Below are positions 1,018 to 63,180 of a stretch of DNA of 64,000 nt, one piece after another (the first letter of the stretch is position 1; each line of letters begins with the position of its first letter). The stretch spans positions 52,514,001-52,578,000 of the forward strand of contig NC_043003.1 in the NCBI RefSeq assembly GCF_006345805.1, read 5' to 3'. Position numbers and translations under genes: made by a program. Source of the DNA: Octopus sinensis (taxonomy: Eukaryota). The notes beneath the pieces are model-generated. The model was not told the origin of the DNA. It was given only the letters and a program-made list of their open reading frames with translations, and searched no databases.

Positions 1018-1890
1018 ATCATCAATCATTGTTTAATGTCCGTTTTCCATGCTGGCATGGGTTGGACGGTTTGACCAAGGTCTGGTAAAGCCAGCCGCTG
1101 CACCAGGCTCCAATCTGATCTGGCAATGTTTCTACAGTTGTATGCCCTTCCTAATGCCAACCACTCTGAGAGTGTAGTGGGTGCTTTTAACATGCCACCG
1201 CGGCACAGGGGCCAGTCAGGCAGCCCTGGCATCGATCATGTTCAGATGGTGCTTTTTATGTGCAACTGGCATCAATCACATTTGAATGGTGCTTTTTATG
1301 TGCCACCAATATGGGAGCCAGTCAAATGGCACTGACATCAACCATGTTTAGATGGTGTATTTTACATTCCACCAGCATGGGAGCCAGTTGGGGGCACTGG
1401 CATCGAAGTTGTTTAGATGGTGCATTTTAATTGCCACTGGTACAGAAGCCAGTCAGATGGCACTGACCACAGCTACGATTTTGGTTTTACTTGACTCAAC
1501 AAGTCTTCTCAAGCATATCATATCACATGGTACATTAAAGGTACTTTTGAAATGGGCCGGACATGCATCACTAGTATTGGCCATGGCTGCGATCTCTTTA
1601 GTTGCCGGGTCTTCTCAATCACAGCATATCTCCAAAGGTTTCGGTTTCCTGTCATTGCCTCCATGAGGCCCAACATTCAAAGGTCATGCTTCACTACCTC
1701 ATCCCATATCTTCCTGGGTCTACCTCTTGCACACCACATTTGATCCTTCTTATGTCCAACTTTTCTCTCAGATCGCTCACACTTTGTTCAGTATACACAC
1801 TGACATTACACATTCAGTGGATCATACTAGCTTTACTTCTTTCAAGCCTATACATGTCCTCAGCAGTCATGGCCCATATTTCACTGCCGT
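1018..1890 (-). mobile_element. RTE 3' fragment: ORF end, repeat-containing 3' UTR and (GAT)n tail
   Basis: Minus strand reads MLHGSEIWAMTAEDM...RPRKIWDEVVKHDL, then GC-rich ~60-bp subrepeats and the terminal ...GGAAAACGGACATTAAACAATGAT shared by many short copies. Confidence 0.85.
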
Positions 1891-9603: not shown

Positions 9604-10691
9604 CCCTTTCGTTACTATATTTCTGACCAAAATACACCCTTTATGTGTTTCAATTAATTTCTAACATAATCATAAATTTAGTCTGGTTTCATTAAACAAC
9701 TATAACTTTTTTATTTATCAATATATTAATCTGATTTTTGGAAGATAATTTAATGAAATGTTCTCAACCAATTCTATACTATAATTTTTGTCACAAAGTG
9801 ACTCTAATTGCAGGCAGATACAGGTAAATTCAACAAAATATAAAATTATTAAAATTTTGTTCAAACATCGCTATAGAAAATGGGTTATTAGCTAATATTC
9901 AATTGGGTATACAACAAAATTTTACGATAGAATTTGTTATTCTAGGTAACTTTCTGACACCCATAATAATATTTATGGCAAAATAGTCTTAATTTCATTT
10001 AAGGTTGTGGGAAACCACTAACTATCCTTTCTTTCGCTTTGTTTACATTTAGTGTAACGGTTCGTTTCTGCCGTAATGATTTCAAATAGGCTCATTCGAA
10101 AAAGTAAAAAGAAATAGTCTAAGGCTTTACTCTCCTGGGAAAGTCTGTGGCTTGGTCCAGTTTCTTCAGAAAAATCACCGAAAGAAACAGTTTTTAAATT
10201 TTCACTCCATTCAGGTGCCAATTCATTTTCTTTATCACTGTCGGAGCTCTCGGATTCACTGTTTTCACTTTCGGAAAATGAAACATCAGATTCATTATCA
10301 AATACCACGTGCTTTTTTTTTTCAGTCATAGAGTTAGATTTATCAAGGTCTTCAGTAGAAAATCCTTCGAATTCTGACTCGCTGCTTGATATAATGAAAT
10401 TCGTATCTATTTTTTGTCAGAATTACAAATTTTGAAAACACAATAGGAACAAATTTCGGAAAAAAATCTCCCAAAATTCATGGAATTAAAATTACACTTC
10501 GATCGTTGTACAAAACTGTAGATGAACTGTTTACGAAGTATAATACGTGTTTTCACGAATGTACTAAAGAGATTTGCTCTGATATTCTCATTTAAATATG
10601 AATAGGTAAATTACGGGCGGGTTTGGGCAGTTTGGTCACATTAACCAAAATTTTTTTCGGGCGGCTTTGGGCAGTTTGGATAACGAAAGGA
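9604..10691 (-). mobile_element. Non-autonomous piggyBac element with transposase N-terminal remnant
   Basis: TTAA|CCCTTTCGTTAC...TAACGAAAGGA|TTAA. Acidic N-terminus followed by ALDYFFLLF...IITAETNRY, as in piggyBac/PGBD transposases. Near-identical to 39722-40806. Confidence 0.88.
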
Positions 10692-12697: not shown

Positions 12698-13165
12698 ATC
12701 ATCATCATCGTTTAATGTCTGCTTTTCATGCTGGCATGAGTTGGATGGTTTGACTAAGGTCTGGTAAGCTAGTGGACTGCACCAAGCTCCAATCTGATCT
12801 GGCAATGTTTCTACAGCTGGATGCCCTTCCTAATGCCAACCACTCCCAGAGTGTAGTGGATGCTTGTAACATGCTACTGGCATGAGAGCCAGTCAGGGGT
12901 CACTGGCATCAACCATGTTCAGATGGTCCTTTTTATGTGCCACTGGCATGGGAGCCAGTCAGGGGGCACTGGCATCGACCACATTTGGCTAGTGCTTCTT
13001 ATGTGCCACCAGCATGGGAGCCAGCCAGGGGGCACTGGCATCGACCACATTTGGCTAGTGCTTTTTATGTGCTACTTGTATGTGAGCCAGTTGGGGGTAC
13101 TGATATCCACCATGTTCGGAGGTTGTTTTTTATGTGCCACAGGCATGGGGGCCAGTCAGGGGAGA
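12698..13165 (-). mobile_element. RTE 3' UTR fragment with ~66-bp tandem subrepeats
   Basis: (CAT)n on the plus strand, then the shared UTR end. Unit starts at ~12937, 13003, 13069 and 13134. Similar short copies at ~5449, 6075, 6757, 16170, 19400, 36930, 37730, 54470 and 54955. Confidence 0.8.
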
Positions 13166-15915: not shown

Positions 15916-16606
15916 ATCTGGTGGAACATCTCTCTCCATCCTTTCAGTACTACTTATACACCCCACCATTGTTCCTACTGTTCCCCAATACATCTTCAAC
16001 ACCATCTATTTCTCTCTCTCCCACCTTCCTTGTCCTACTGGTGTAACTAAGTATCTTCTCTATAATAAGACAACTATCTCTGTCCCACCCCTGTCTATAA
16101 TACTTTAACCGCTCACCTGGTACACAACCACTTCTCTTGGTTCCACTAAATTTTTCAACTAAGAGGTCTGTCTTGAAAGTTACTTAGTGACTCTGCTGGT
16201 GGTAGTGCCATCTAAAATACATCTGTGACAGTGACATGTAAAAAGCACTTGTGCAGGTTCCACATAAAATGTACTTGTGCTGATGCCATGTAAAAAGCAC
16301 CCATGCTGGTACTATGTAAAGAGCAGCCAGCATACTCTGTAAAGTGGTTGGCATTAGGAAGGACAATCAGTCATAGAAGCCATGTCAAAACAGGCAACTG
16401 GAGCCTGTTGCAGCTCTCATGCTTGCCAGCACCTGTCAAACTATCCAACCCACGCCAACATGAAAAATGGACATTAAATGATGATGATAATGATGATAAT
16501 GGCAATATAAATGAGAAAAACAGGTAATGTATACCTTGCATAAATAGAATAACACACCATTACTTTCAATAAATTCCAAGACAGCACTGTGACAGATATA
16601 AACAAG

Positions 16607-18772: not shown

Positions 18773-20465
18773 GGTTAGATGAATACATATTGATGAAGTA
18801 TTGCTTTACAGTTGGGTGCACTTCCTGTCACTAACCCTTGCCTGTTTTTCAAGTAAGGGAGTTGTTGTTCATTCTATATATCTTTGCAAGTGCAGAGTCA
18901 TCAAGTGACTTACTGTTAGAGATGACAACGGCAGCACTGACTGTAATTCATCTAATCACAAATTGTACACATTCTCACAGACATGCAAATGCAGGCACAC
19001 CTACCCAACCAAAATGCATGCACACACATTTATTTACTGAGATTCATTGCAGTATTTATTCAAGTTGTAATTTCTGATTTGTTAAAATGTTTGTTTACAG
19101 TTTTTGTCCAGTTTTTAAATCATATAATTTTTAAGATGTTTATTTCAAAATTTAACTATAATATTTTAAAAGTAGATTTTGCTTTAAAACTATGAAGTTT
19201 GGCTGTATGGTTCAAAATTCCAGTACGTCTCCTTGGAGTATTAAGTCTGGTTGCTCTGCACAGCAACTTGAGCATCTTCTACTTATATTCTCAAGTTGAC
19301 AAATGCATTATGAGGGAAATTTGGTAGAAGGAACTTGTACAAAAACCTATGTGCATATGTATCTGCTCTTACATGTCTTCATATTGACATCTCTCAGCTG
19401 GCAGTAGTGATATTTATGTCTAACTTAAAGCACCTGTGCTGGTACCTCATTAACAGTACCTGTGCTGGTGCCATATTAAAAGCACCTGTACTGATGCCAT
19501 GTTAAAAGCATCCGTGCTAGTGCAACATAAAAACCACTCAGTACACTCTGTAAAGTGGCTGGTGTTATGAAGGGCATCCAACCGTAGAAACATGCCTAAA
19601 CAGACAACTGGAGCTAGATGTAGCTCTCAGTTTTGCCAGCTCTTAATGGACTGTCCAACACATGCCAGCAAGGAAAATGAATGTTAAATGATGATGATAT
19701 ATATACACAATAAGCTTTGTACAGCTTCCATTTACCAAATTCACTCACAGGGCATTGGAGAATAGTAAAAAAACAACAACAAAGAACAACAACAACAACA
19801 ATAAAAAAGAACTTGCTCAAAGTGCCATGTAGTGGGACTGAACCTGAAATCATATGGTTGCATGATGAACATCTTAACCACACAGTCATGCCTGTATCTA
19901 AATATGTTCTGTTATTGTATTGACTCAAAATAATGATGTGCTGGCTATGTTAATTCAAGAGATAGACAGTAGGTCAAGGAAACAAGAATTGAAAACATTA
20001 GATATTACTTGCAAGGTGTTTGGAAATGTATTATATTAAGAGATGTTAAGAAGTTCAGAAAAGACAACCAAATTCAATTTAGCTTTCTTTGTCTAAATCT
20101 AGCTCCATTCTCAGAAGATCAGATAAATGAAATATATAGTTAGCTCCTTGATTGCAGATCACTAGATCAGTTGTGACAACTAAAGCAAAAAAAAAAATAC
20201 TGTTATGTCTTGATAACAAGATAACTTGCGCTAAGAAAAGGTGTCCTTCTGTAAACTGTAACTTTCCTTACATAACATTTATATTATTGGTTTACATATT
20301 TAGTTAAAATTTCTTATACTGATGAGTCAAAAGACATTTTACAACTGCCATACAGGTGCAGGCGTGGTTGGGTGGCAAAGAGGTTTGCTCCTTCTAATAT
20401 AACACTGGGCTGATAAAAGCCTTGTTAAGCAGAAACTGAAAGAAGCATGTCATATCATATATATA

Positions 20466-21698: not shown

Positions 21699-22064
21699 GT
21701 AGTTTTTGTAAAGCCAGAACAAGGCAAGAAGGTACAAAGTTTACTAAAAAATGAAAAGAAAACAGAACGACTAAGTTGCAGCTTTACTTTGTATTTCTAT
21801 ATTTTGAAGTGAAGAATCCTTCTTCAGGACATTCCAAAAAGCAGTGGTTGGAAAAAGTTTGTTGCTCAAATGTGTTTTCCCTTCCCCTTACACACATTTA
21901 AGCAACAAACTTTTTCCAACCACCACTTTTCCAAATGTCCTGAAGAAGGGTTCTTCACCTCAAAATATAGAAATACAAAATAAAACTGCAATTTTGTTCT
22001 GTTTTCATCTCATTTTGTAGTTTACTTTGCACCTTCTCACATTGTTCTGACTTTACACAACTAC
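21699..22064. repeat. Fold-back inverted repeat (~175-bp arms) with a degenerate hammerhead-like motif in each arm
   Basis: 21699-21875 is the diverged reverse complement of 21892-22064. ATGTC-CTGAAGA-AGG...CAAAA-TATA-GAAAT occurs at 21940 (+) and 21827 (-). Confidence 0.8.
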
Positions 22065-36386: not shown

Positions 36387-38096
36387 CTGTATGTAGTTTA
36401 AAAGAGATAACAATGTCAATTTCAAATAATTTTTCAGCATATACACTTTTAATGATTTAATTTTTAAATCTAGAATGTGTTAACAAATTAATTTTAAATA
36501 AGGCATATTCACATATTTTGTTTTTATTTTTATTTTTCTCCTTGTACATAATTTTTGTAGCTGAGTACACTAGCCTGTAAACAGTGTAGCTTTTCATAAA
36601 TGGACCATTCCCATGAAATTAAACCAAAAATGGTTTTAAAAAAATTTTTTAGAATGCTCAGAAAAATCACTATATACTTGAAAAGGTAGGTTGAAATGGT
36701 TCTTTGGAATCATTTCTTCCAGATCTACACTACTTGGAAGACAGAAAATATTTATTTTGGAAAATGTTACATCATTTTTTGTTATGCTCGTCATGCCAGA
36801 TGAATGAGGATTGTGACCACAGACCATTGTTGTCCAGTAAACTTTCTCTTCCAGCTGAGGTAATCACGACACCTATTTTTAATCTTCCTCACTGAGCACA
36901 AAGCCACCTCTCAATACTACTCCACACCAACTCAACTGAGCTTTCTTGCTTTGCAAGTTACTCAATGTCTTCACTAGTGGTGGCACCATGTAAAAAACAC
37001 TGAATACATTCTGTAAAGTGGAAGAGCATTCATCTGTAGAAACTATGCCAAAGCAGATGTTGGAGCTTGATGCAGCCCTCTAGCTCACCGGCTCCTGTCG
37101 AACCCTCCAACCCATGCCAGCATGGTAAATGAATGTTAAATGATGATAATGACAACTGGCCACCTCCTCACCATTCAGCAGAATCCAACATTTCTGTAGT
37201 AATACCTCAGTTTACCAATATTACTGTTAAAGTCTGGGGGCTTTTCTTTTACCATCACCTAGTTCTCAAAAACAGAAGGTACCTAGTATGTTTTGGTGTC
37301 CTTAGTATGTAACAGGGGCAATACAACCAAAGACTGTATTTCATGAGGGATTTCTATGCTTGTGCATCTGGATTTCTGATAGAGAAGAAACACACAGCAT
37401 GTTTATTTGCTACTCATAATTACACACAGAATACTAATGATGAAGATCATTTTGGTAGTTTAAATGTTATACTTGACTGATGTTGACAAGCAGAGTGATT
37501 TTTTTTCAGATCCTAGCTGTTTCTGGGTATATGTTTGTAGTATATTTTGGAAAATACTTTTTAAAGGCTACATGTATCATTTTTGGATGTCCCCCATTAT
37601 TCATAAATAGTTGTACTTACATCAATGCAGACTCCTAGACACTGGGTAGTGGGCTAAATTATAACCACCATACACAAAAAAAAAAAACCCGGAGGTGAAT
37701 TAGCATCAGATAACTCCATCACTCACCTACTCATCATCACCATCACCATTGTCATCATCATCATCATTTAATGTCCGTTTTTCATTGCATGGGTTGGACA
37801 GCTGACAGGAATTGGCAACACCAGGGGCTGCACCAGGCTCCAGAGCCTATTTTGGCTTGGTTTCTACAGATGGATGCCTTTCCTAACACCAACCACTTTA
37901 CAGAATGTACTGGGTGCTTTTTTATGTGGCACCATCACCAGCACTTTGTATGTGGCACCAACACCAAAGCTTTTTAGATGGCAGCTTGGTCTTATCATTA
38001 GACATTTTTAATATTCATAACCCACATATCTTAATCTGCAAATCACAATATAGGTTCAAACCTTACACTCAACCATTAAACTTGTAATGAACCTAT

Positions 38097-39721: not shown

Positions 39722-40806
39722 CCCTTTCGTTACTATATTTCTGACCAAATTACACCCCTTATGTGTTTCAATTAATTTCTAACGTAATCATAAATTTAGT
39801 CTGGTTTCATTAAACAACTATAACTTTTTTATTTATCGATATATTAATCTGATTTTTGGAAGATAATTTAATGAAATATTCTCAACCAATTCTATACTAT
39901 AATTTTTGTCACAAACTGACTCTAATTGCAGGTAGATAGAGGTAAATTCCACAAAATATAAAATTATTAAAATTTTGTTCAAACATCGCTATAGAAAATG
40001 GGTTATTAGCTAATATTCAATTGGGTATACAACAAAATTTTACGATAGAATTTGTTATTCTAGGTAACTTTCTGATACCCATAATAATATTTATGGCAAA
40101 ATAGTCTTAATTTCATTTAAGGTTGTGGGAAATAACAAACTATCCTTTCTTTCGCTTTGTTTACTTTTAGCGTAATGGTTCGTTTCTGCCGTAATGATTT
40201 CAAATAGGCTCATTCGAAAAAGTAAATAGAAATAGTCTAAGGCTTTACCCTTCTGGGAAAGTCTGTGGCTTGGTCCAGTTTCTTCAGAAAAATCACCGAA
40301 AGAAACAGTTTTTAAATTTTCACTCCATTCAGGTGCCAATTCGTTTTCTTTATCGCTATCGGAGATCTCAGATTCACTGTTTTCACTTTCGGAAAATGAA
40401 ACATCAGATTCATTATCAAATACCACATGCTTTTTTTTTCAGTCATAGAGTTAGATTTATCAAGGTCTTCAGTAGAAAATCCTTCGAATTCTGACTCGCT
40501 GCTTGATATAATGAAATTCGTATCCATTTTTTGTCAGAATTACAAATTTTGAAAACACAATAGGAACAAATTTCGGAAAAAAATCTCCCAAAATTCACGG
40601 AATTAAAATTACACTTCGATTATCGTACAAAACTGTAGTTGAACTGTTTACGAAGTATAATACGTGTTTTCACGAATGTGCTGAAGAGATTTGCTCTGAT
40701 ATTCTCATTTAAATATGAATAGGTAAATTCGGGCAGCCTTGGGCGGTTTGGTCTCATAAACCAAAATTTTTTTCGGGCGGCTTTGGGCGGTTTGGTAACG
40801 AAAGGG
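39722..40806 (-). mobile_element. Non-autonomous piggyBac element (second copy)
   Basis: TTAA|CCCTTTCGTTAC...GTAACGAAAGGG|TTAA with perfect TIRs; same remnant ORF (40091-40527). Confidence 0.92.
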
Positions 40807-50944: not shown

Positions 50945-51630
50945 TGAGCTGGCAGAAACGTTAGCATGCCGGGCGAAATGCTTTAGCAGTATTTCGTCTG
51001 CCGTTACGTTCTGAGTTCAAATTCCGCCAAGGCCAACTTTGCCTTTCATCCTTTCGGGGTCGATTAAATAAGTACCAGTTATGCACTGGGGTTAATATAA
51101 TCGAATTAATCCATTTGTCTGTCCTTGTTTGTCCTTTCTGTGTTTAGCCCCTTGTGGGTTGTAAAGAAATAGGTATGGTTTCTACAGACGGGTAGTCTTC
51201 CTCACACCAATCACTTTACAGAGTGAACTGAGTGCTTTTTACATGGTACCAGCACAAGTGCTCTTTATGTGGCATCAGCATGGATGCTAATTACACGGTG
51301 CCAGCATGGGTACTTTTTATGTAAAATATGACAATGTTCAGAAATGTGCATTAGAGTAAAATATATGATGGCATAAAAGATGCATGGGAATATAAAATAC
51401 CTATTTCTTTACTACCCACAAGGGGCTAAACACAGAGGGGACGAACAAGGACAGACAAATGGATTAAGTCGATTATATGGACCCCATTTCGTAACTGGTA
51501 CTTATTTAATCGACCCCAAAAGGATGTAAGGTAAAGTCGATTTCGGCGGTATTTGAACTCGGAACGTAACGGCAGACAAAATACGGCTACGCATTTCGCC
51601 CGGCATGCTAACGTTTCTGCCAGCTCGCAT
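50945..51630. mobile_element. Inverted pair of SINE family 3 copies (50945-51172 +, 51401-51630 -)
   Basis: GAGCTGGCAGAAACGTTAGCA...GTTCTGAGTTCAAATTCCGCC...GTAAAGAAATAGGTAT and its reverse complement. More copies at ~18050, 35005, 39540, 56738 and 56965. Confidence 0.85.
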
Positions 51631-51809
51631 CACCAATTTGAGCAGTATAGGTGTAGGAGTGGCTGTGTGGTAAGTAGCTTGCTTACGAACTACATGGTTC
51701 TGGGTTCAGTCCCACTGCGTGGTACCTTGGGTAACTACTATAGCTTTGGGTCAACCAAAGCCTTGTGAGTAGATTTGGTAGACGGAAACTGAAAGAAGCC
51801 CGTCGTATG

Positions 51810-51848
<39 letters not shown>

Positions 51849-52132
51849 TCTCAACAATTGAGGGTAAAATTAATTAATTATTAATCAATTTCACCAAGTA
51901 TTCAGTATGTAAAGGGACCATTTAAGGCGAATTCAAATTATTACATTATATAAAAGGGCTTAGTAAAATAAATTACTTTGCCACATACTGAACTCATTAG
52001 AAATAGCAGCTAAAAAAATTTTTTTTTTAAACTATTTCTAATACTTAAAGAAAATCTCTCTCATATAGTGTTTGCTCAAGTCAACTCACGAAGATATGGG
52101 GGTAAAAACATTAAAAAATCACAAATGCAAAG

Positions 52133-52194
52133 GTTATTTGAGAACGTACGTTTCTAGATTAGTCAAATCGACATTTCTTTCGTCAGCTCAGAAC
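52133..52194 (-). ncRNA. Type I hammerhead ribozyme motif (identical inverted copy)
   Basis: Exact reverse complement of 52523-52584. Confidence 0.75.
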
Positions 52195-52522
52195 TCCTTG
52201 ATTCGGATTTGGGAACACTGAAAGCGGGGGCATACCCTTTTGGCTTCTTATCACTTCCGGAGATCTGCTCCAACTACCAGTGCTATCAAATTCAAAATAT
52301 GCAAGCGAAGAATTTCTGCTCTCCCCTTTCCACCAGCGTGGGTTAGAATTGGTAAACACTATGTTTTATCGGTAAAAACCGAAGCAATTAAATAGAGAGA
52401 AATGAATTATAATTTCAACAATTGAGGGTAAAATTAATTAATTATTAATCAATTTCACCAAGTATTCAGTATGTAAAGGGACCATTTAAGGCGAATTCAA
52501 ATTCCCAAATCCGAATCAAGGA

Positions 52523-52584
52523 GTTCTGAGCTGACGAAAGAAATGTCGATTTGACTAATCTAGAAACGTACGTTCTCAAATAAC
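52523..52584 (+). ncRNA. Type I hammerhead ribozyme motif
   Basis: Stem I TGAG/CTCA (plus GTT/AAC after a bulge); core CTGACGA 52531-37; stem II AGA..GTC-GATTT-GAC..TCT; GAAA 52563-66; palindromic stem III ACGTACGT; predicted GUU cleavage after 52574. Confidence 0.75.
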
Positions 52585-53336
52585 CTTTGCATTTGTGATT
52601 TTTTAATATTTTACCCCCATATCTTCGTGAGTTGACTTGAGCAAACACTATATGAGAGAGATTTTCTTTAAGTATTAGAAATAGTTTAAAAAAATTTTTT
52701 AGCTGCGATTTCTAATGAGTTCAGTATGTGGCAAAGTAATTTATTTTACTAAGCCCTTTTATATAATATATATATATATATATGTATGTGTGTATGTATA
52801 TGTTTGTGTGTCTGTGTTTGTCCCCCCAACATTGCTTGACAACCAGTGGTGGTGTGTTTACATCCCCGTAACTTAGCGGTTCAGGAAAAGAGACCGATAG
52901 AATAAGTACTAGGCTTACAAAGAATAAGTTATGGGGTTGATTGGGGTCGATCTGTTCAATTAAAGGCAGTGCTCCAGCATGGCCACAGTCAAATGACTGA
53001 AACAAGTAAAAGAGTAAAGAGTGTATATTCAAGAAAAAAGTTTCTAGTGTATTAAGTCATGTAATATCTAAAGCAATCCAGCAGTGTATTACAAAATATT
53101 ACTAAGATATCTTATTTATTACAGAAAACATTACTCTTTACTCTTTTATCTGTTTCAGTCATTTGACTGCGGCCATGGTGGAGCACCTCCTTTAGTCGAT
53201 ATGGAGTATCGAAATTTTAACTTATTCTTTGTAAGCTGAGTACTTATTCTATCAGTCTCTTTTGCTGAACTGCTATGTTATGGGGATGCAAACACACCAG
53301 CTTCGGTTGTCAAGCGATGTTGGGGGGCAAACACAG

Positions 53337-53373
<37 letters not shown>

Positions 53374-54021
53374 CAACAGGTTTCTTTCAGTTTCCATCTA
53401 CCAAATCCACTCACAAGGCTTTGGTCGGCCTGAGAGTATAGTAGAAGACACTTGCCCAAGGTACCATGCAGTGGGACTGAATCCAGAACCATGTGGTTGG
53501 TAAGCAAGCTACTTATCACACAGCCACTATAAAAAACTAACAGTACAGCTGAACAGGAAGCAAGAAATTACGATAGCGAAAATATTTTATATGATTACAG
53601 TAATAAAACATACAAGAAAATACAAAGAATACATATAAAAAGCAAGCTTCAACAACAATCAAAAACAAACCAAAACAAATTAACAAAAAACTTTAATCAT
53701 TTTCAGAGCCAGAAAAATCCTTATCATCAGATCTTAAAAACCCATTATCACTGTTGCTCGTATATGACTATTGATATTATTGCCTTTAAATAATGCACCA
53801 TCTGTTGTGCAATCTGGGATATAATCAGTACCACACTTCTTAAGAGTTTCACAATTGCTTCAGGTTTTTTTTTAGATAATCCCAAAACTGACCCACTTAC
53901 TTATGCACCTGTGCAATGGTGGACCACTTCATTCTCCTGTGAGTGTGAGGCCCTGATGTGGTTCTCCCAACCTTTTGTTCCAATGTTCTTGCATATTCTG
54001 CTTAAATGGTACATTCACATC

Positions 54022-60199: not shown

Positions 60200-63180
60200 A
60201 GGTAGATCTGGCGAGATAGTTGAGATGCTTGAACGGAGATGGGTTGATGTATGTTGCATGCAAGAAATAAGGTGGAGAGGAGGATCTGCTAGGTTCCTCA
60301 CAGGCAAGGAACACAGGTACAAGATTTTCTGGGCAGGGAACACTGACGGGGTCGGTGGCGTGGGTATACTTATCGCTGAGAAATGGGTAGATAGAGTACT
60401 GAGGTAATCAGAGTAAGTGACAGAATACTTAAGATTAGAATAGTGCTTCATAATAGATTAGCAACCATTATATCGGCCTATGCCCCTCAGCCAGGGCTAC
60501 CCGATGGACAGAAAGACAGTTTCTATGACACCCTACTGCAGACCACCTCATTGACGAACGACAGGGACCTTCTCTTTGTGGCTGGTGATTTCAATGGGCA
60601 TGTTGGACGACATGCTGGGGGCTTCCATGGCGTACATGGAGGCTACGGTTATGGTTCCCGCAACGAGGAGGGAACCAGGCTGCTGGAGTTCTGCGATGCA
60701 AATGACCTTATGGTCTGCAATACCAACTTCAGGAAACCCACCTCTCACCTAGTCACCTACCGTTCTGGCGGACACACCAGCCAGATTGACTACATCCTTG
60801 CCAGAAAAAGGGAAAGATGGCTGCTTATAAATGCCAAAACCTTCCCAGGCGAAGAATGCACCCCACAACATAGACTGGTAGTTAGTGACTTTAGGATCAG
60901 GACTAAGAGGGCGACTAGAAGACGACCAACATGGAGAAGAAGGGTCTGGAAGCTAAAAGACCCTGCGAATGGACAGAGATTTAGAGATATGTTACTTGAA
61001 GCCTTTGACGAAGTGGAAGGGGGTATAGCTACGCATGGGGTAGAAGACAACTGGACGTTTCTGAGGGACAACCTGCTGAAAGCCGCTGACCAGATCTGTG
61101 GCTGGTGCAAAGTCCCCTTAAGACCCAAAATAACGTGGTGGTGGAACAATATTGTTGACAGGGCTATTAGACAAAAGAAACAGGCTTGGAAGAACGGTGG
61201 TAGCAGGGAAGTGTATCAGACTGCCAGAAGGGAAGCTAGGAGACAGGTATATCTAGCCAGAGGGGAGGCAGATAAAGAAAAATTTGCCAATGTCCTGCGC
61301 CGTGAGGATGAAAGACTTGAGGTATTTCGTGTTGCAAGACAGTGTGTGAGAGAGAATCGTGACGTGGTAGGAGAGAAATGTGTTCGCAAGGATGACGGTT
61401 CACTTGCGCTAAATGAGGATGCAAAGAGAGAGGCTTGGAGATGCCACTATGAAAGGTTGCTGAATGAGGAAAATGAATGGGATAAAGAGAGTCTCCCGAA
61501 TGTCGACCCAACAGAGGGACCAGCAATCCGAGTTAACAGTTCCTTAGTAGATAAGGCAATTAGAAGCATGAAAACAGGGAAAGCCCCAGGCCCATCAGGA
61601 ATTACTGCAGAGATGCTCAAAATATCTGGTAGTGTCGGCTATAGCTTAGTCACCCGTATAGTAAACCAGGTGATACACGAAGGAGTCATACCCAATGACT
61701 GGTGTAGCAGCATAATAGTCAACTGCTACAAAGGTAAAGGCGACGCCCTAGATACAAATAACTACAGGGGCATCAAGCTGCTGGATCAGGTAATGAAGGT
61801 TACGGAGAGGGTTATAGCCCAATTAATTAGAGAGAGAGTTATCTTAGATGATATGCAGTTTGGGTTCGTGCCAGGGAAAAGTACTACTGATGCTATATTC
61901 CTGGTAAGACAGCTGCAGGAGAAATACCTAGCCAAAGATAAGCCCTTGTATCTGGCTTTTGTTGACTTGGAGAAAGCCTTTGACAGGGTCCCCCGATCCC
62001 TTATCTGGTGGTCAATGAGGAAACTAGGGATAGATGAATGGTTAGTGAGAGCTGTGCGAGCCATGTACAGAGACGCTGCTAGTAAGGTGAGGGTTGGCAA
62101 CGAGTACAGTGAAGAATTCCGGGTAGAGGTTGGGGTCCACCAAGGTTCAGTCCTCAGTCCCCTCCTATTTATCATAGTCCTCCAGGCAATAACGGAGGAA
62201 TTCAAGACAGGATGCCCCTGGGAGCTCCTCTATGCTGATGACCTTGCTCTAATTGCTGAGTCACTATCAGAACTGGAGGAGAAGTTTCAGGTGTGGAAAC
62301 AAGGATTAGAATCGAAGGGCCTTAGAATCAACCTAGCCAAAACCAAAGTCCTAATAAGTAGGAAGGTGGACCAATCACAAACGACTTCAGGTAGATGGCC
62401 CTGCTCGATCTGTAAAAAAGGTGTAGGTAGAAACTCTATAAGGTGCACCAAGTGTAAGCTATGGACACATAAGAGGTGCAGCAATGTCAAAGGAAGGCTA
62501 AGAAAATAGTTTTTGTCTGTGGCAGATGCTCAGGAGCAATAAACACTGGAAATGTGCAGAGACCAACTTCTACCACGTTCCAGGGAGACAAACTAGAAGT
62601 AGTTGATAGCTTCCGCTACCTAGGAGACCAAGTCAGTAGCGGGGGTGGGTGTGCTGAAAGTGTAACTGCTAGAGTAAGAATAGCCTGGGCAAAGTTTAGA
62701 GAGCTCTTACCCCTGCTGGTGACAAAAGGCCTCTCGCTAAGAGTAAAAGGCAGACTATATGATGCGTGTGTACGTACAGCCATGCTACATGGTAGTGAAA
62801 CATGGGCCATGACTGCTGAGGATATGCGTAAGCTTGCAAGAAATGAAGCCAGTATGCTCCGATGGATGTGTAATGTCAGTGTTCATAATCGTCAGAGTGT
62901 AAGTACTTTGAGAGAAAAGTTGAACCTAAGAAGTGTCAGTTGTGGTGTGCAAGAGAGACGGCTGCGCTGGTATGGTCATGTGACGAGAATGGCTGAAGAT
63001 AGTTGTGTGCCAAAGTGCTACACCCTAGCAGTTGAGGGAACCTGTGGAAGAGGTAGACCCAGGAAAACCTGGGACGAGGTGGTGAAGCACGACCTTCGAA
63101 CTTTAGGTCTCACCAAGGAAATGACTGAAGACCGAGTCCTATGGAAGTGTGCTGTGCATGAGAGGACCCGGCAGGACTAG
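60200..63180 (+). mobile_element. RTE-clade non-LTR retrotransposon ORF (APE endonuclease + RT + PHD-like finger), slightly 5'-truncated, two frameshifts
   Basis: ORFs 60225-60407, 60443-62509 and 62476-63180 join across frameshifts near 60398 and 62500. APE motifs CMQE, SAYAPQ, GDFNGHVG, SQIDYIL, QHRLV; RT motifs GKAPGPSG, YRGIKLL, QFGF, FVDLEKAFDRVP, GVHQGSVLSPLLF, YADD; C-terminal LRWYGHV and GRGRPRKTW typical of RTE. Confidence 0.95.

What the first reader, a model, noticed from the sequence alone, without database searches (positions are those of the whole stretch)
51851..52767. Young ORF-less mobile element carrying two identical inverted hammerhead ribozymes (candidate cephalopod retrozyme or non-autonomous Penelope partner)
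Seen: architecture A-B-spacer-A-B'. A is an identical 89-bp direct repeat with a 564-bp period. B and B' are a ~270-bp inverted repeat joined to A through a TT microhomology. The whole insert sits in the (TA)n tract of a SINE. Each B arm has a complete type I hammerhead: TGAG/CTCA stem I, CUGACGA, interrupted stem II, GAAA, palindromic ACGTACGT stem III and a GUU site. Known: Penelope-like elements make partially tandem or inverted pseudo-LTR insertions and carry minimal type I hammerheads with palindromic stem III that cleave as dimers; retrozymes are non-coding, hammerhead-containing retroelements with circular RNA intermediates. Inference: the terminally redundant 564-nt unit may be a self-cleaving, possibly circular RNA mobilised in trans.
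Basis: partly seen in the sequence, partly recalled or inferred. Interest (0 to 1): 0.88.

Follow-up and report, generated by a model that had tools for sequence, protein, structure and literature searches.

The report
Penelope-mobilised hammerhead repeat, 564 bases
This is one recent copy of an abundant, protein-free 564-base jumping repeat in a probable octopus genome; it carries a predicted self-cutting RNA motif, and its mirror-image shape suggests it was likely pasted in by a borrowed Penelope-type retrotransposon enzyme, a kind of element already known from other animals.

Summary
The arms are 97% alike, though the ribozyme parts are identical. The hammerhead has an A·A mismatch where G10.1-C11.1 is usual.

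Contigs of public runs show a multi-copy family whose natural order is A-B-spacer, with a period of about 560-564 bases and no ORF. The RNA sense is the minus strand. This copy is a 1.16-unit direct arm plus a 265-base inverted arm in the (TA)n of a SINE, the typical Penelope insertion layout.

Both outer ends lie at TATA motifs 95-102 bases apart (published Penelope tails are 30-40). Other copies end there too: 4 contigs at one site, 1 at the other. Both arms run through the predicted cut site, so the template was an uncut tandem RNA or a religated circle; I could not tell which. The copy is probably a dead end, with one sense ribozyme per strand, masked by fold-back.

Verdict: a new member of the animal non-LTR retrozymes (non-autonomous Penelope partners). 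Cleavage, circles and the partner enzyme are untested. The scan noted similar octopus families on other DNA; look-ups by sequence found no note on this one.

The parts
51655..51812 (+).
   Evidence: 80-86% matches to other copies in the window, next to matches of the right flank
51813..51847 (.). (TA)n target, left part; a target-site duplication cannot be resolved
51848..51850 (+). Three junction bases (CTC) that differ at 2 of 3 places from the template copy at 52412-52414 (ATT)
51851..52503 (-). Direct arm, 653 bases = 1.16 units (RNA order a-spacer-b-a); its 3' end at 51851 is end site 2
   Evidence: internal junctions covered by contigs of other copies
51851..51939 (-). A, first copy: the 'tail' between end site 1 and end site 2; it holds an AT-rich hairpin
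51940..52215 (-). B: part of the unit copied in both arms; TATA motif of end site 1 at 51947-51952
52139..52190 (-). Type I hammerhead motif of the direct arm; predicted cut after 52143; A·A at the base of helix II; helix III of 2 bp with a palindromic tetraloop
52216..52414 (-). Spacer, 199 bases, non-coding, part of the family unit; pairs with B in the predicted fold; TATA motif of end site 2 at 52408-52411
52415..52503 (-). A, second copy, identical to the first; the direct arm stops here
52502..52503 (.). Inversion junction with a 2-base (TT) microhomology
52502..52766 (+). Inverted arm B', 265 bases; starts 73 bases before the predicted cut and ends at the TATA motif of end site 1, which merges with the target (TA)n
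52527..52578 (+). Type I hammerhead motif of the inverted arm, identical to the other; predicted cut after 52574
52767..53022 (+). Rest of the (TA)/(TG) tract and right part of the host repeat

Best explanation
The insert is one recent copy of a multi-copy, non-coding 564-base unit with a predicted hammerhead ribozyme (a non-LTR retrozyme), likely copied into the (TA)n of a SINE by the reverse transcriptase and endonuclease of an autonomous Penelope-like element. Shown: the unit, its repetition, its minus-strand polarity (by layout; weakly by variants), the two arms, the TA target, and both ends at TATA motifs. Inferred steps: (1) The enzyme cuts both strands in (TA)n. (2) Each free TA end primes on a UAUA motif of the RNA, one at site 2 and one about 95 bases upstream at site 1. 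(3) The first cDNA runs 653 bases, through the ribozyme cut site and past one full unit, and stops within about 10 bases of a site 1. The second cDNA runs 265 bases, also through the cut site. (4) The two cDNAs are joined head to head at a 2-base microhomology. The template was therefore longer than a cleaved linear monomer; I put an uncut tandem transcript slightly ahead of a religated circle (about 55:45). This copy is probably a dead end.
For: Family: 20 of 24 listed runs hold part of the unit, 8 of them at least half of its words, under 4 organism codes and 9 studies; 3,832 contigs of run X1 lie on a 566-base stretch. Unit order: A to B is bridged by 31 or more letters on both sides in X2 and X3, and B to spacer in X3, X5, X11, X14 and X19; one 630-base contig of X3 holds the same B position twice, 560 apart. 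No ATG ORF over 41 codons in the doubled unit; 0 of 7 frames scanned reach a Pfam cut-off. Layout: partial tandem plus an inverted 5'-truncated copy, a tail and a microsatellite target, as described for Penelope-like elements (PMC8557442, PMC3846280; passages). Ends: (TA)n loose ends at site 2 in 4 contigs of 3 runs from 3 studies, and at site 1 in 1 contig; TATA occurs at only 3 places in the unit. Six of the 15 joints shown lead from the direct arm into the inverted arm at other breakpoints. Two internal RT starts bounding the tail, cutting of both strands in AT-rich DNA, and uncut RNA as the main template were shown in vitro for a lizard element (PMC11167929). Fold: -136.8 against -105.4 +/- 6.7 kcal/mol in 40 shuffles; 9 of 11 transitions at Watson-Crick pairs leave a G·U pair on the minus strand (null 0.5, p=0.033), and one pair varies on both sides.
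Against: No autonomous partner was found, and none could be sought (no genome held). Site 1 as a family end rests on this copy and one other contig. None of the 6 loose-end rows shown for DNA run X1 lies at either site (24 of 156 rows shown). Spacer to A is bridged by only 19-26 letters on the shorter side (five runs), under the tool's 31-letter rule, and the middle of the 630-base contig was not listed. Only 1 of the 6 inversion joints has 30 or more letters on its shorter side. The tail (95-102) is far longer than the published 30-40 bases, and the lizard enzyme started without homology to the cut DNA. The opposite strand also folds well (z -3.95). Variants are not depleted in paired positions (22 of 44 against 316 of 564, p=0.26), and 6 of the 22 break a pair. 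The ribozyme lacks G10.1-C11.1, its monomer fold (-1.6) is less stable than the alternative (-7.8), and Rfam does not recognise it.
Confidence: 0.75

Rival explanations
1. Same element and same enzyme, but the template is a covalently closed 564-nt circle made by hammerhead cleavage (as a dimer through the palindromic helix III) and ligation. The reverse transcriptase rolls around it. This refines the best explanation and does not exclude its other steps.
For: Both arms read through the cut site, and the direct arm is 1.16 units with identical A copies. The circle folds with z -4.7 and 62% pairing. The helix III duplex between two copies is -9.8 kcal/mol. Circles are shown for coral, mussel and axolotl retrozymes, and one axolotl ribozyme also has a 2-bp helix III and a mismatch at the base of helix II yet cleaves (PMC7229834, passages).
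Against: An uncut tandem transcript gives the same DNA. Cleavage was not needed for insertion in vitro (PMC11167929). Only 1 of 9 Xenopus retrozyme dimers cleaved in vitro (bioRxiv 10.64898/2026.07.22.740005). The arms differ by 2 substitutions and 5 gap bases, though later mutation or assembly error can explain that.
Confidence: 0.35
2. The inverted arm arose by self-priming or a template switch of the cDNA or of an antisense RNA, not by a second priming from the other target strand.
For: Proposed for rotifer Penelope inversions with palindromes at the junction (PMC3846280). One family joint (52071 to 52637) is close to a perfect fold-back.
Against: This junction has no palindrome, only TT. 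The inverted arm ends at a TATA motif in register with the target (TA)n, and the direct arm stops within about 10 bases of the equivalent site one unit on.
Confidence: 0.2
3. The insert is only the truncated ends (pseudo-LTR stubs) of an ordinary autonomous Penelope-like element, and the 564 period belongs to this one insertion.
For: Close, opposite-strand hammerhead pairs 100-700 bp apart are described for truncated elements (PMC4209133). Some contigs leave the unit and run on unlike for up to 255 letters, and summed depth over A is several times higher than over the rest in X14 and X19, so A is probably shared with other families.
Against: The whole spacer is covered and linked to B in several runs, and (more weakly) to A. 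A contig of another organism code shows a 560 period. There is no room for an RT or GIY-YIG ORF.
Confidence: 0.07
4. The fold-back is an assembly or long-read artefact.
For: No listed contig spans the junction at 52503, and both private substitutions lie in B'.
Against: The arms are not identical, both ends fall on family end sites, the host repeat is otherwise whole, and other inversion joints exist in the family.
Confidence: 0.04

Closest known systems
Metazoan non-LTR retrozymes (Cervera and de la Pena 2020, PMC7229834; Li, Clavereau and Pollet 2026, bioRxiv 10.64898/2026.07.22.740005)
   Same: Non-coding, low-GC (33%) repeat unit with one type I hammerhead, strongly self-paired, multi-copy; a Penelope partner is proposed in both papers.
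   Different: The 564-nt unit is longer than the 150-450 nt of the first paper but within the 51-972 of the second. No cephalopod appears in the parts that I read. The word 'inverted' does not occur in PMC7229834, and the parts that I read of the preprint do not describe inverted arms or fixed ends. This copy has one sense ribozyme, so it fails the preprint's 'active' criterion. Circles and cleavage are untested here.
Insertions of endonuclease-bearing Penelope-like elements (Penelope/Poseidon, Neptune, Naiad; PMC8557442, PMC3846280, PMC11167929)
   Same: Partial tandem forming a pseudo-LTR, inverted 5'-truncated copy, a tail at one end only, AT-rich or microsatellite target, hammerhead in the repeat.
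   Different: No RT-GIY-YIG ORF; tail of 95-102 bases instead of 30-40; both ends lie at TATA motifs that match the target, whereas the lizard enzyme starts without homology.
Hammerheads of Penelope-like elements (PMC4209133)
   Same: Short helix I (4 bp), long interrupted helix II, unpaired base 5' of helix II, small palindromic helix III suited to a dimer.
   Different: G10.1-C11.1 is replaced by A·A (A-U in a variant seen in 2 contigs of X14).
L1 twin priming
   Same: A 5' inversion whose outer end is a second priming event with microhomology to the target.
   Different: No poly(A) tail, the template is longer than one unit, and both primings are internal.

Membership tests
Metazoan non-LTR retrozyme | Type I hammerhead motif in the unit | tested here: met
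   Descriptor hit, 0.04 expected per shuffled window; no listed variant in the two catalytic boxes, though the tables were cut; Rfam gave no match
Metazoan non-LTR retrozyme | Multi-copy unit of a few hundred bases that repeats head to tail | tested here: met
   1.16 units here; 560 period in one contig; two junctions bridged, spacer to A only by 19-26 letters
Metazoan non-LTR retrozyme | Non-coding and low GC | tested here: met
   33% GC, longest ATG ORF 41 codons; no Pfam family at cut-off in 7 frames
Metazoan non-LTR retrozyme | Highly self-paired monomer | tested here: met
   z -4.7 in 40 shuffles; variants lean to G·U on the sense strand, p=0.033
Metazoan non-LTR retrozyme | Two consecutive ribozyme-bearing units in one copy (the 'active' criterion of Li et al.; it marks active copies, not the family) | tested here: not met
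   This copy has one sense ribozyme per strand; other copies could not be read at length
Metazoan non-LTR retrozyme | Self-cleavage and circular RNA | not testable with these tools
   Only contigs were available, which cannot show ends, strand or circles
Metazoan non-LTR retrozyme | No primer-binding site or polypurine tract | not tested
   Not looked for
Penelope-like element insertion | Partial tandem with an inverted 5'-truncated copy | tested here: met
Penelope-like element insertion | AT-rich or microsatellite target | tested here: met
   (TA)n here and in 5 other contigs at the two end sites
Penelope-like element insertion | Tail of 30-40 bases between two start sites | tested here: inconclusive
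   Two end sites are present but 95-102 bases apart; site 1 has one independent contig
Autonomous Penelope-like element | ORF with RT and GIY-YIG endonuclease | tested here: not met
Non-autonomous Penelope partner | Shared terminal sequence with an autonomous element of the same genome | not testable with these tools
   No genome held; A seems shared with other repeats, which I could not read
Penelope-type minimal hammerhead | G10.1-C11.1 pair closing helix II | tested here: not met
   A·A here; A-U in a variant

The most novel reading that the evidence does not exclude
The family lives as a ligated 564-nt circular RNA, and each insertion is made by a Penelope-type enzyme that primes both ends of a cut (TA)n site at two fixed UAUA motifs about 95 bases apart on the same circle. 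It rolls through the religated ribozyme site and joins two head-to-head cDNAs. This would explain the Penelope 'tail' and inverted arms as one double-priming event, and A-to-I edits of the RNA could be written back into the genome.
Probability: 0.22. Interest if true: 0.7.

Novelty: new member of a known kind. Interest (0 to 1): 0.42.

Why it matters
How animal retrozymes are copied into DNA has been proposed but not shown in the papers that I read. An ORF-less hammerhead unit with the Penelope insertion footprint (inverted arm, tail, TA target) links the two directly. Read-through of the cut site limits the template to an uncut multimer or a circle. The long tail and TATA-matched ends give simple predictions that can be counted in any octopus assembly and tested with a purified enzyme. 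The single copy is probably inert, and the class itself is known.

Tried and rejected
Whole-genome search: no genome is held for this window, so there is no copy count, no alignment of whole copies and no partner search. Exact ribozyme patterns found 0 matches in metagenome contigs and 0 in viral contigs; these collections are not expected to hold this animal. Rfam found no hammerhead.

No RNA holder is listed. Runs X11, X14 and X19 are only guessed to be RNA and no silent control stretch was laid, so their cover of all 30 bins is not counted as evidence of expression. Their contigs run across the predicted cut site and do not stop there, which contigs cannot interpret.

The 'goes back 564' joint is rejected as evidence of a circle: I cut the stretch inside A, so it only shows that A is continuous. 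The X11 loose end at 51955 is rejected as an end: it is an internal variant. Summed depths were not used as copy numbers.

The motif count returned 0 through a faulty pattern and was redone. The first variant test used 37 positions that I picked (14 of 18 paired ones kept on the minus strand, 5 of 15 on the plus). It was redone with all 44 listed variants that reach 10% in a DNA run; RNA-only and rarer rows were left out, and 21 and 52 rows were not shown by the tool. The five G·U to Watson-Crick changes were not counted, because folding this copy favours them. A CCGGAAGT promoter-like word in the spacer was dropped because it varies in the family. A cooperating pair of inverted ribozymes was rejected. 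Look-ups of the scan's notes by sequence, relatives and nearness found nothing.

Full report
Observation. The insert lies between 51848 and about 52766. A is an exact 89-base direct repeat, 51851-51939 and 52415-52503, period 564. B (51942-52215) and B' (52502-52770) are 97.1% complementary over 274 columns. The arms differ by 2 substitutions and 5 gap bases but are identical over 52110-52215. The flanks belong to one abundant repeat: in five other copies in the window they lie 4-80 bases apart across a TA tract, and in a sixth, weaker pair 28 bases apart without one.

Ribozyme. A type I descriptor hits only 52527-52578 (+) and 52139-52190 (-) in the whole window; 200 shuffles gave 0.04 hits on average. 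Predicted cuts are after 52574 and 52143. Helix I has 4 bp and extends further in the wider fold. Helix II is 3+3 bp with an internal loop and an A·A mismatch at its base. Helix III is 2 bp with a palindromic tetraloop. The active monomer fold (-1.6 kcal/mol) loses to an alternative (-7.8), while two copies can pair through helix III (-9.8). This fits the dimer-type hammerheads of Penelope-like elements, except for the missing G10.1-C11.1 (PMC4209133, parts 1-2 of 4 read; PMC6765202, passages). Rfam gave no hammerhead match. Among listed family variants, only 52167 (loop II) and 52174 (internal loop) fall in the motif. There is also a 6-base insertion in loop II in one X19 contig, and a form in 2 contigs of X14 that makes an A-U pair at the base of helix II. 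The tables were cut (21 and 52 rows not shown), so conservation of the core is suggested, not proven.

It is a family, and its unit is the 564-mer. No genome is held, so I used public runs. 20 of 24 listed runs hold part of the unit, 8 of them half or more, under four organism codes; one may be the window's own source. Run X1 alone lays 3,832 contigs on 566 bases. A to B is bridged by at least 31 letters on both sides in X2 and X3, and B to spacer in X3, X5, X11, X14 and X19. Spacer to A is bridged by only 19-26 letters on the shorter side, in five runs. A 630-base X3 contig holds one B position twice, 560 apart, though its middle was not listed. No listed contig spans A to B' at 52503, so that is the private junction. 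The natural order is thus A-B-spacer repeated, and the ribozyme is in sense on the minus strand. The unit is 33% GC, has no ATG ORF over 41 codons, and none of 7 frames scanned (7 of the 13 listed; the other six mostly overlap the flanks) reaches a Pfam cut-off.

Fold. As a circle, the minus-strand unit folds at -136.8 kcal/mol against -105.4 +/- 6.7 in 40 shuffles (z -4.7); the other strand also folds well (z -3.95). Of 44 listed variants at 10% or more in a DNA run, 22 are at paired positions, which is no depletion (p=0.26). Nine of 11 transitions at Watson-Crick pairs leave a G·U pair on the minus strand (p=0.033), one pair (51910/51983) varies on both sides but could not be phased, and six changes break pairs. 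Six of the nine are A to G in sense, which editing written back to DNA would also give. This is modest support for selection on, or editing of, a minus-strand RNA.

How the copy was made. Read on the minus strand, it is an inverted 265-base arm followed by a direct arm of 653 bases (a-spacer-b-a). This is the layout described for Penelope-like elements: a partial tandem, an inverted 5'-truncated copy, a tail at one end and a microsatellite target (PMC8557442, passages; PMC3846280, passages). In vitro, a lizard element cuts both strands of AT-rich DNA, starts reverse transcription at two internal sites that bound the tail, and uses mostly uncut RNA (PMC11167929, parts 1-2 of 4). Here both outer ends lie at TATA motifs, of which the unit has only three places. 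Other copies end with (TA)n at site 2 (52408-52415: 4 contigs, 3 runs, 3 studies) and at site 1 (1 contig of X14) (24 of 156 rows shown, none of the six X1 rows at either site). Looking for two fixed ends was a lead from note e1-8807173. Six of the 15 joints shown pass from the direct into the inverted arm at other points; only one has 30 or more letters on its shorter side. The direct arm stops within about 10 bases of the site where the other arm was primed, one unit on, as double priming would predict; this is one case, and the comparison with L1 twin priming is recalled. Both arms pass the cut site, by 361 and 73 bases, so the template was not a cleaved linear monomer. An uncut tandem transcript and a religated circle both fit.

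This copy. Any transcript carries one sense ribozyme, and in a full transcript all 52 of its bases pair with the other arm. It is probably inactive, and it fails the two-unit 'active' criterion of Li et al.

RNA. No run is on record as RNA, and three guessed RNA runs cannot show expression. Two loose ends from two studies carry T to C at 8 of 9 and 7 of 9 T positions in 51956-51982, that is A to G in sense. This looks like ADAR hyper-editing, but genomic copies of edited RNA (note e1-8673030, untested by me) or a subfamily fit too; no DNA of the same animal was laid.

Comparison with what is known. Non-LTR retrozymes are tandem, low-GC, non-coding units with a type I hammerhead, expressed as circles in coral, mussel and axolotl, with Penelope-like elements proposed as helpers (PMC7229834, passages). 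A 2026 preprint derives them from Penelope pseudo-LTRs, with units of 51-972 bases, and found cleavage in 1 of 9 dimers (10.64898/2026.07.22.740005, parts 1-3 of 5; its supplements are closed). Non-autonomous partners with pseudo-LTRs are described in Chlamydomonas. Octopus vulgaris has recently active Penelope families, and that annotation paper does not use the words ribozyme or retrozyme in its main text (PMC13282606, passages). Seven searches (listings only for papers not named here) showed no paper on a cephalopod retrozyme. Repeat databases, supplements and most subscription journals were not searched, so the family may already be catalogued. The scan's own notes describe octopus families of 310-602 nt with the same footprint; they are unchecked leads, not support.

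Verdict. It works like a non-autonomous Penelope partner and meets the testable family-level features of a non-LTR retrozyme; it is not an autonomous element. New here are a 564-nt family, a tail of 95-102 bases and TATA-matched ends. Interest 0.42; new member of a known kind.

Noticed in passing
window 51956-51982 (runs X14 and X19): Loose ends with T to C at 8 of 9 and 7 of 9 T positions, i.e. A to G on the element's sense strand; looks like ADAR hyper-editing or a genomic copy of edited RNA.
   Followed up: partly
window 51895-51951 and 52408-52445: In X14 and X19 the summed depth over A is several times that of the rest of the unit, and some contigs run on unlike the unit at 52017 (up to 255 letters) and 52395 (98 letters). 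The tail region is probably shared with other families, perhaps with the autonomous partner.
   Followed up: no
window 50946-51626 and 52822-53528: The host repeat lies among nested and oppositely oriented copies of the same repeat, giving long inverted repeats (193 nt at 89%, 110 nt at 88%), so the region could form much double-stranded RNA.
   Followed up: no
window 60395-63180 (+): Two long overlapping frames (704 and 235 aa) that look like a nearly intact LINE with endonuclease and RT motifs (read by eye; no family search run).
   Followed up: no
window 10018-10416 and 40091-40438 (-): Two similar acidic frames that resemble the start of a piggyBac-like transposase (recalled resemblance).
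   Followed up: no
window 21827-21940: CTGAAGA...GAAA motifs on opposite strands, about 110 bases apart and similar to each other; they did not pass the strict type I descriptor.
   Followed up: no
window 1265-1467, 12872-13162, 16204-16329, 19427-19537, 37919-37983, 51231-51280: Dispersed 26-base and 66-base minisatellites with related units.
   Followed up: no
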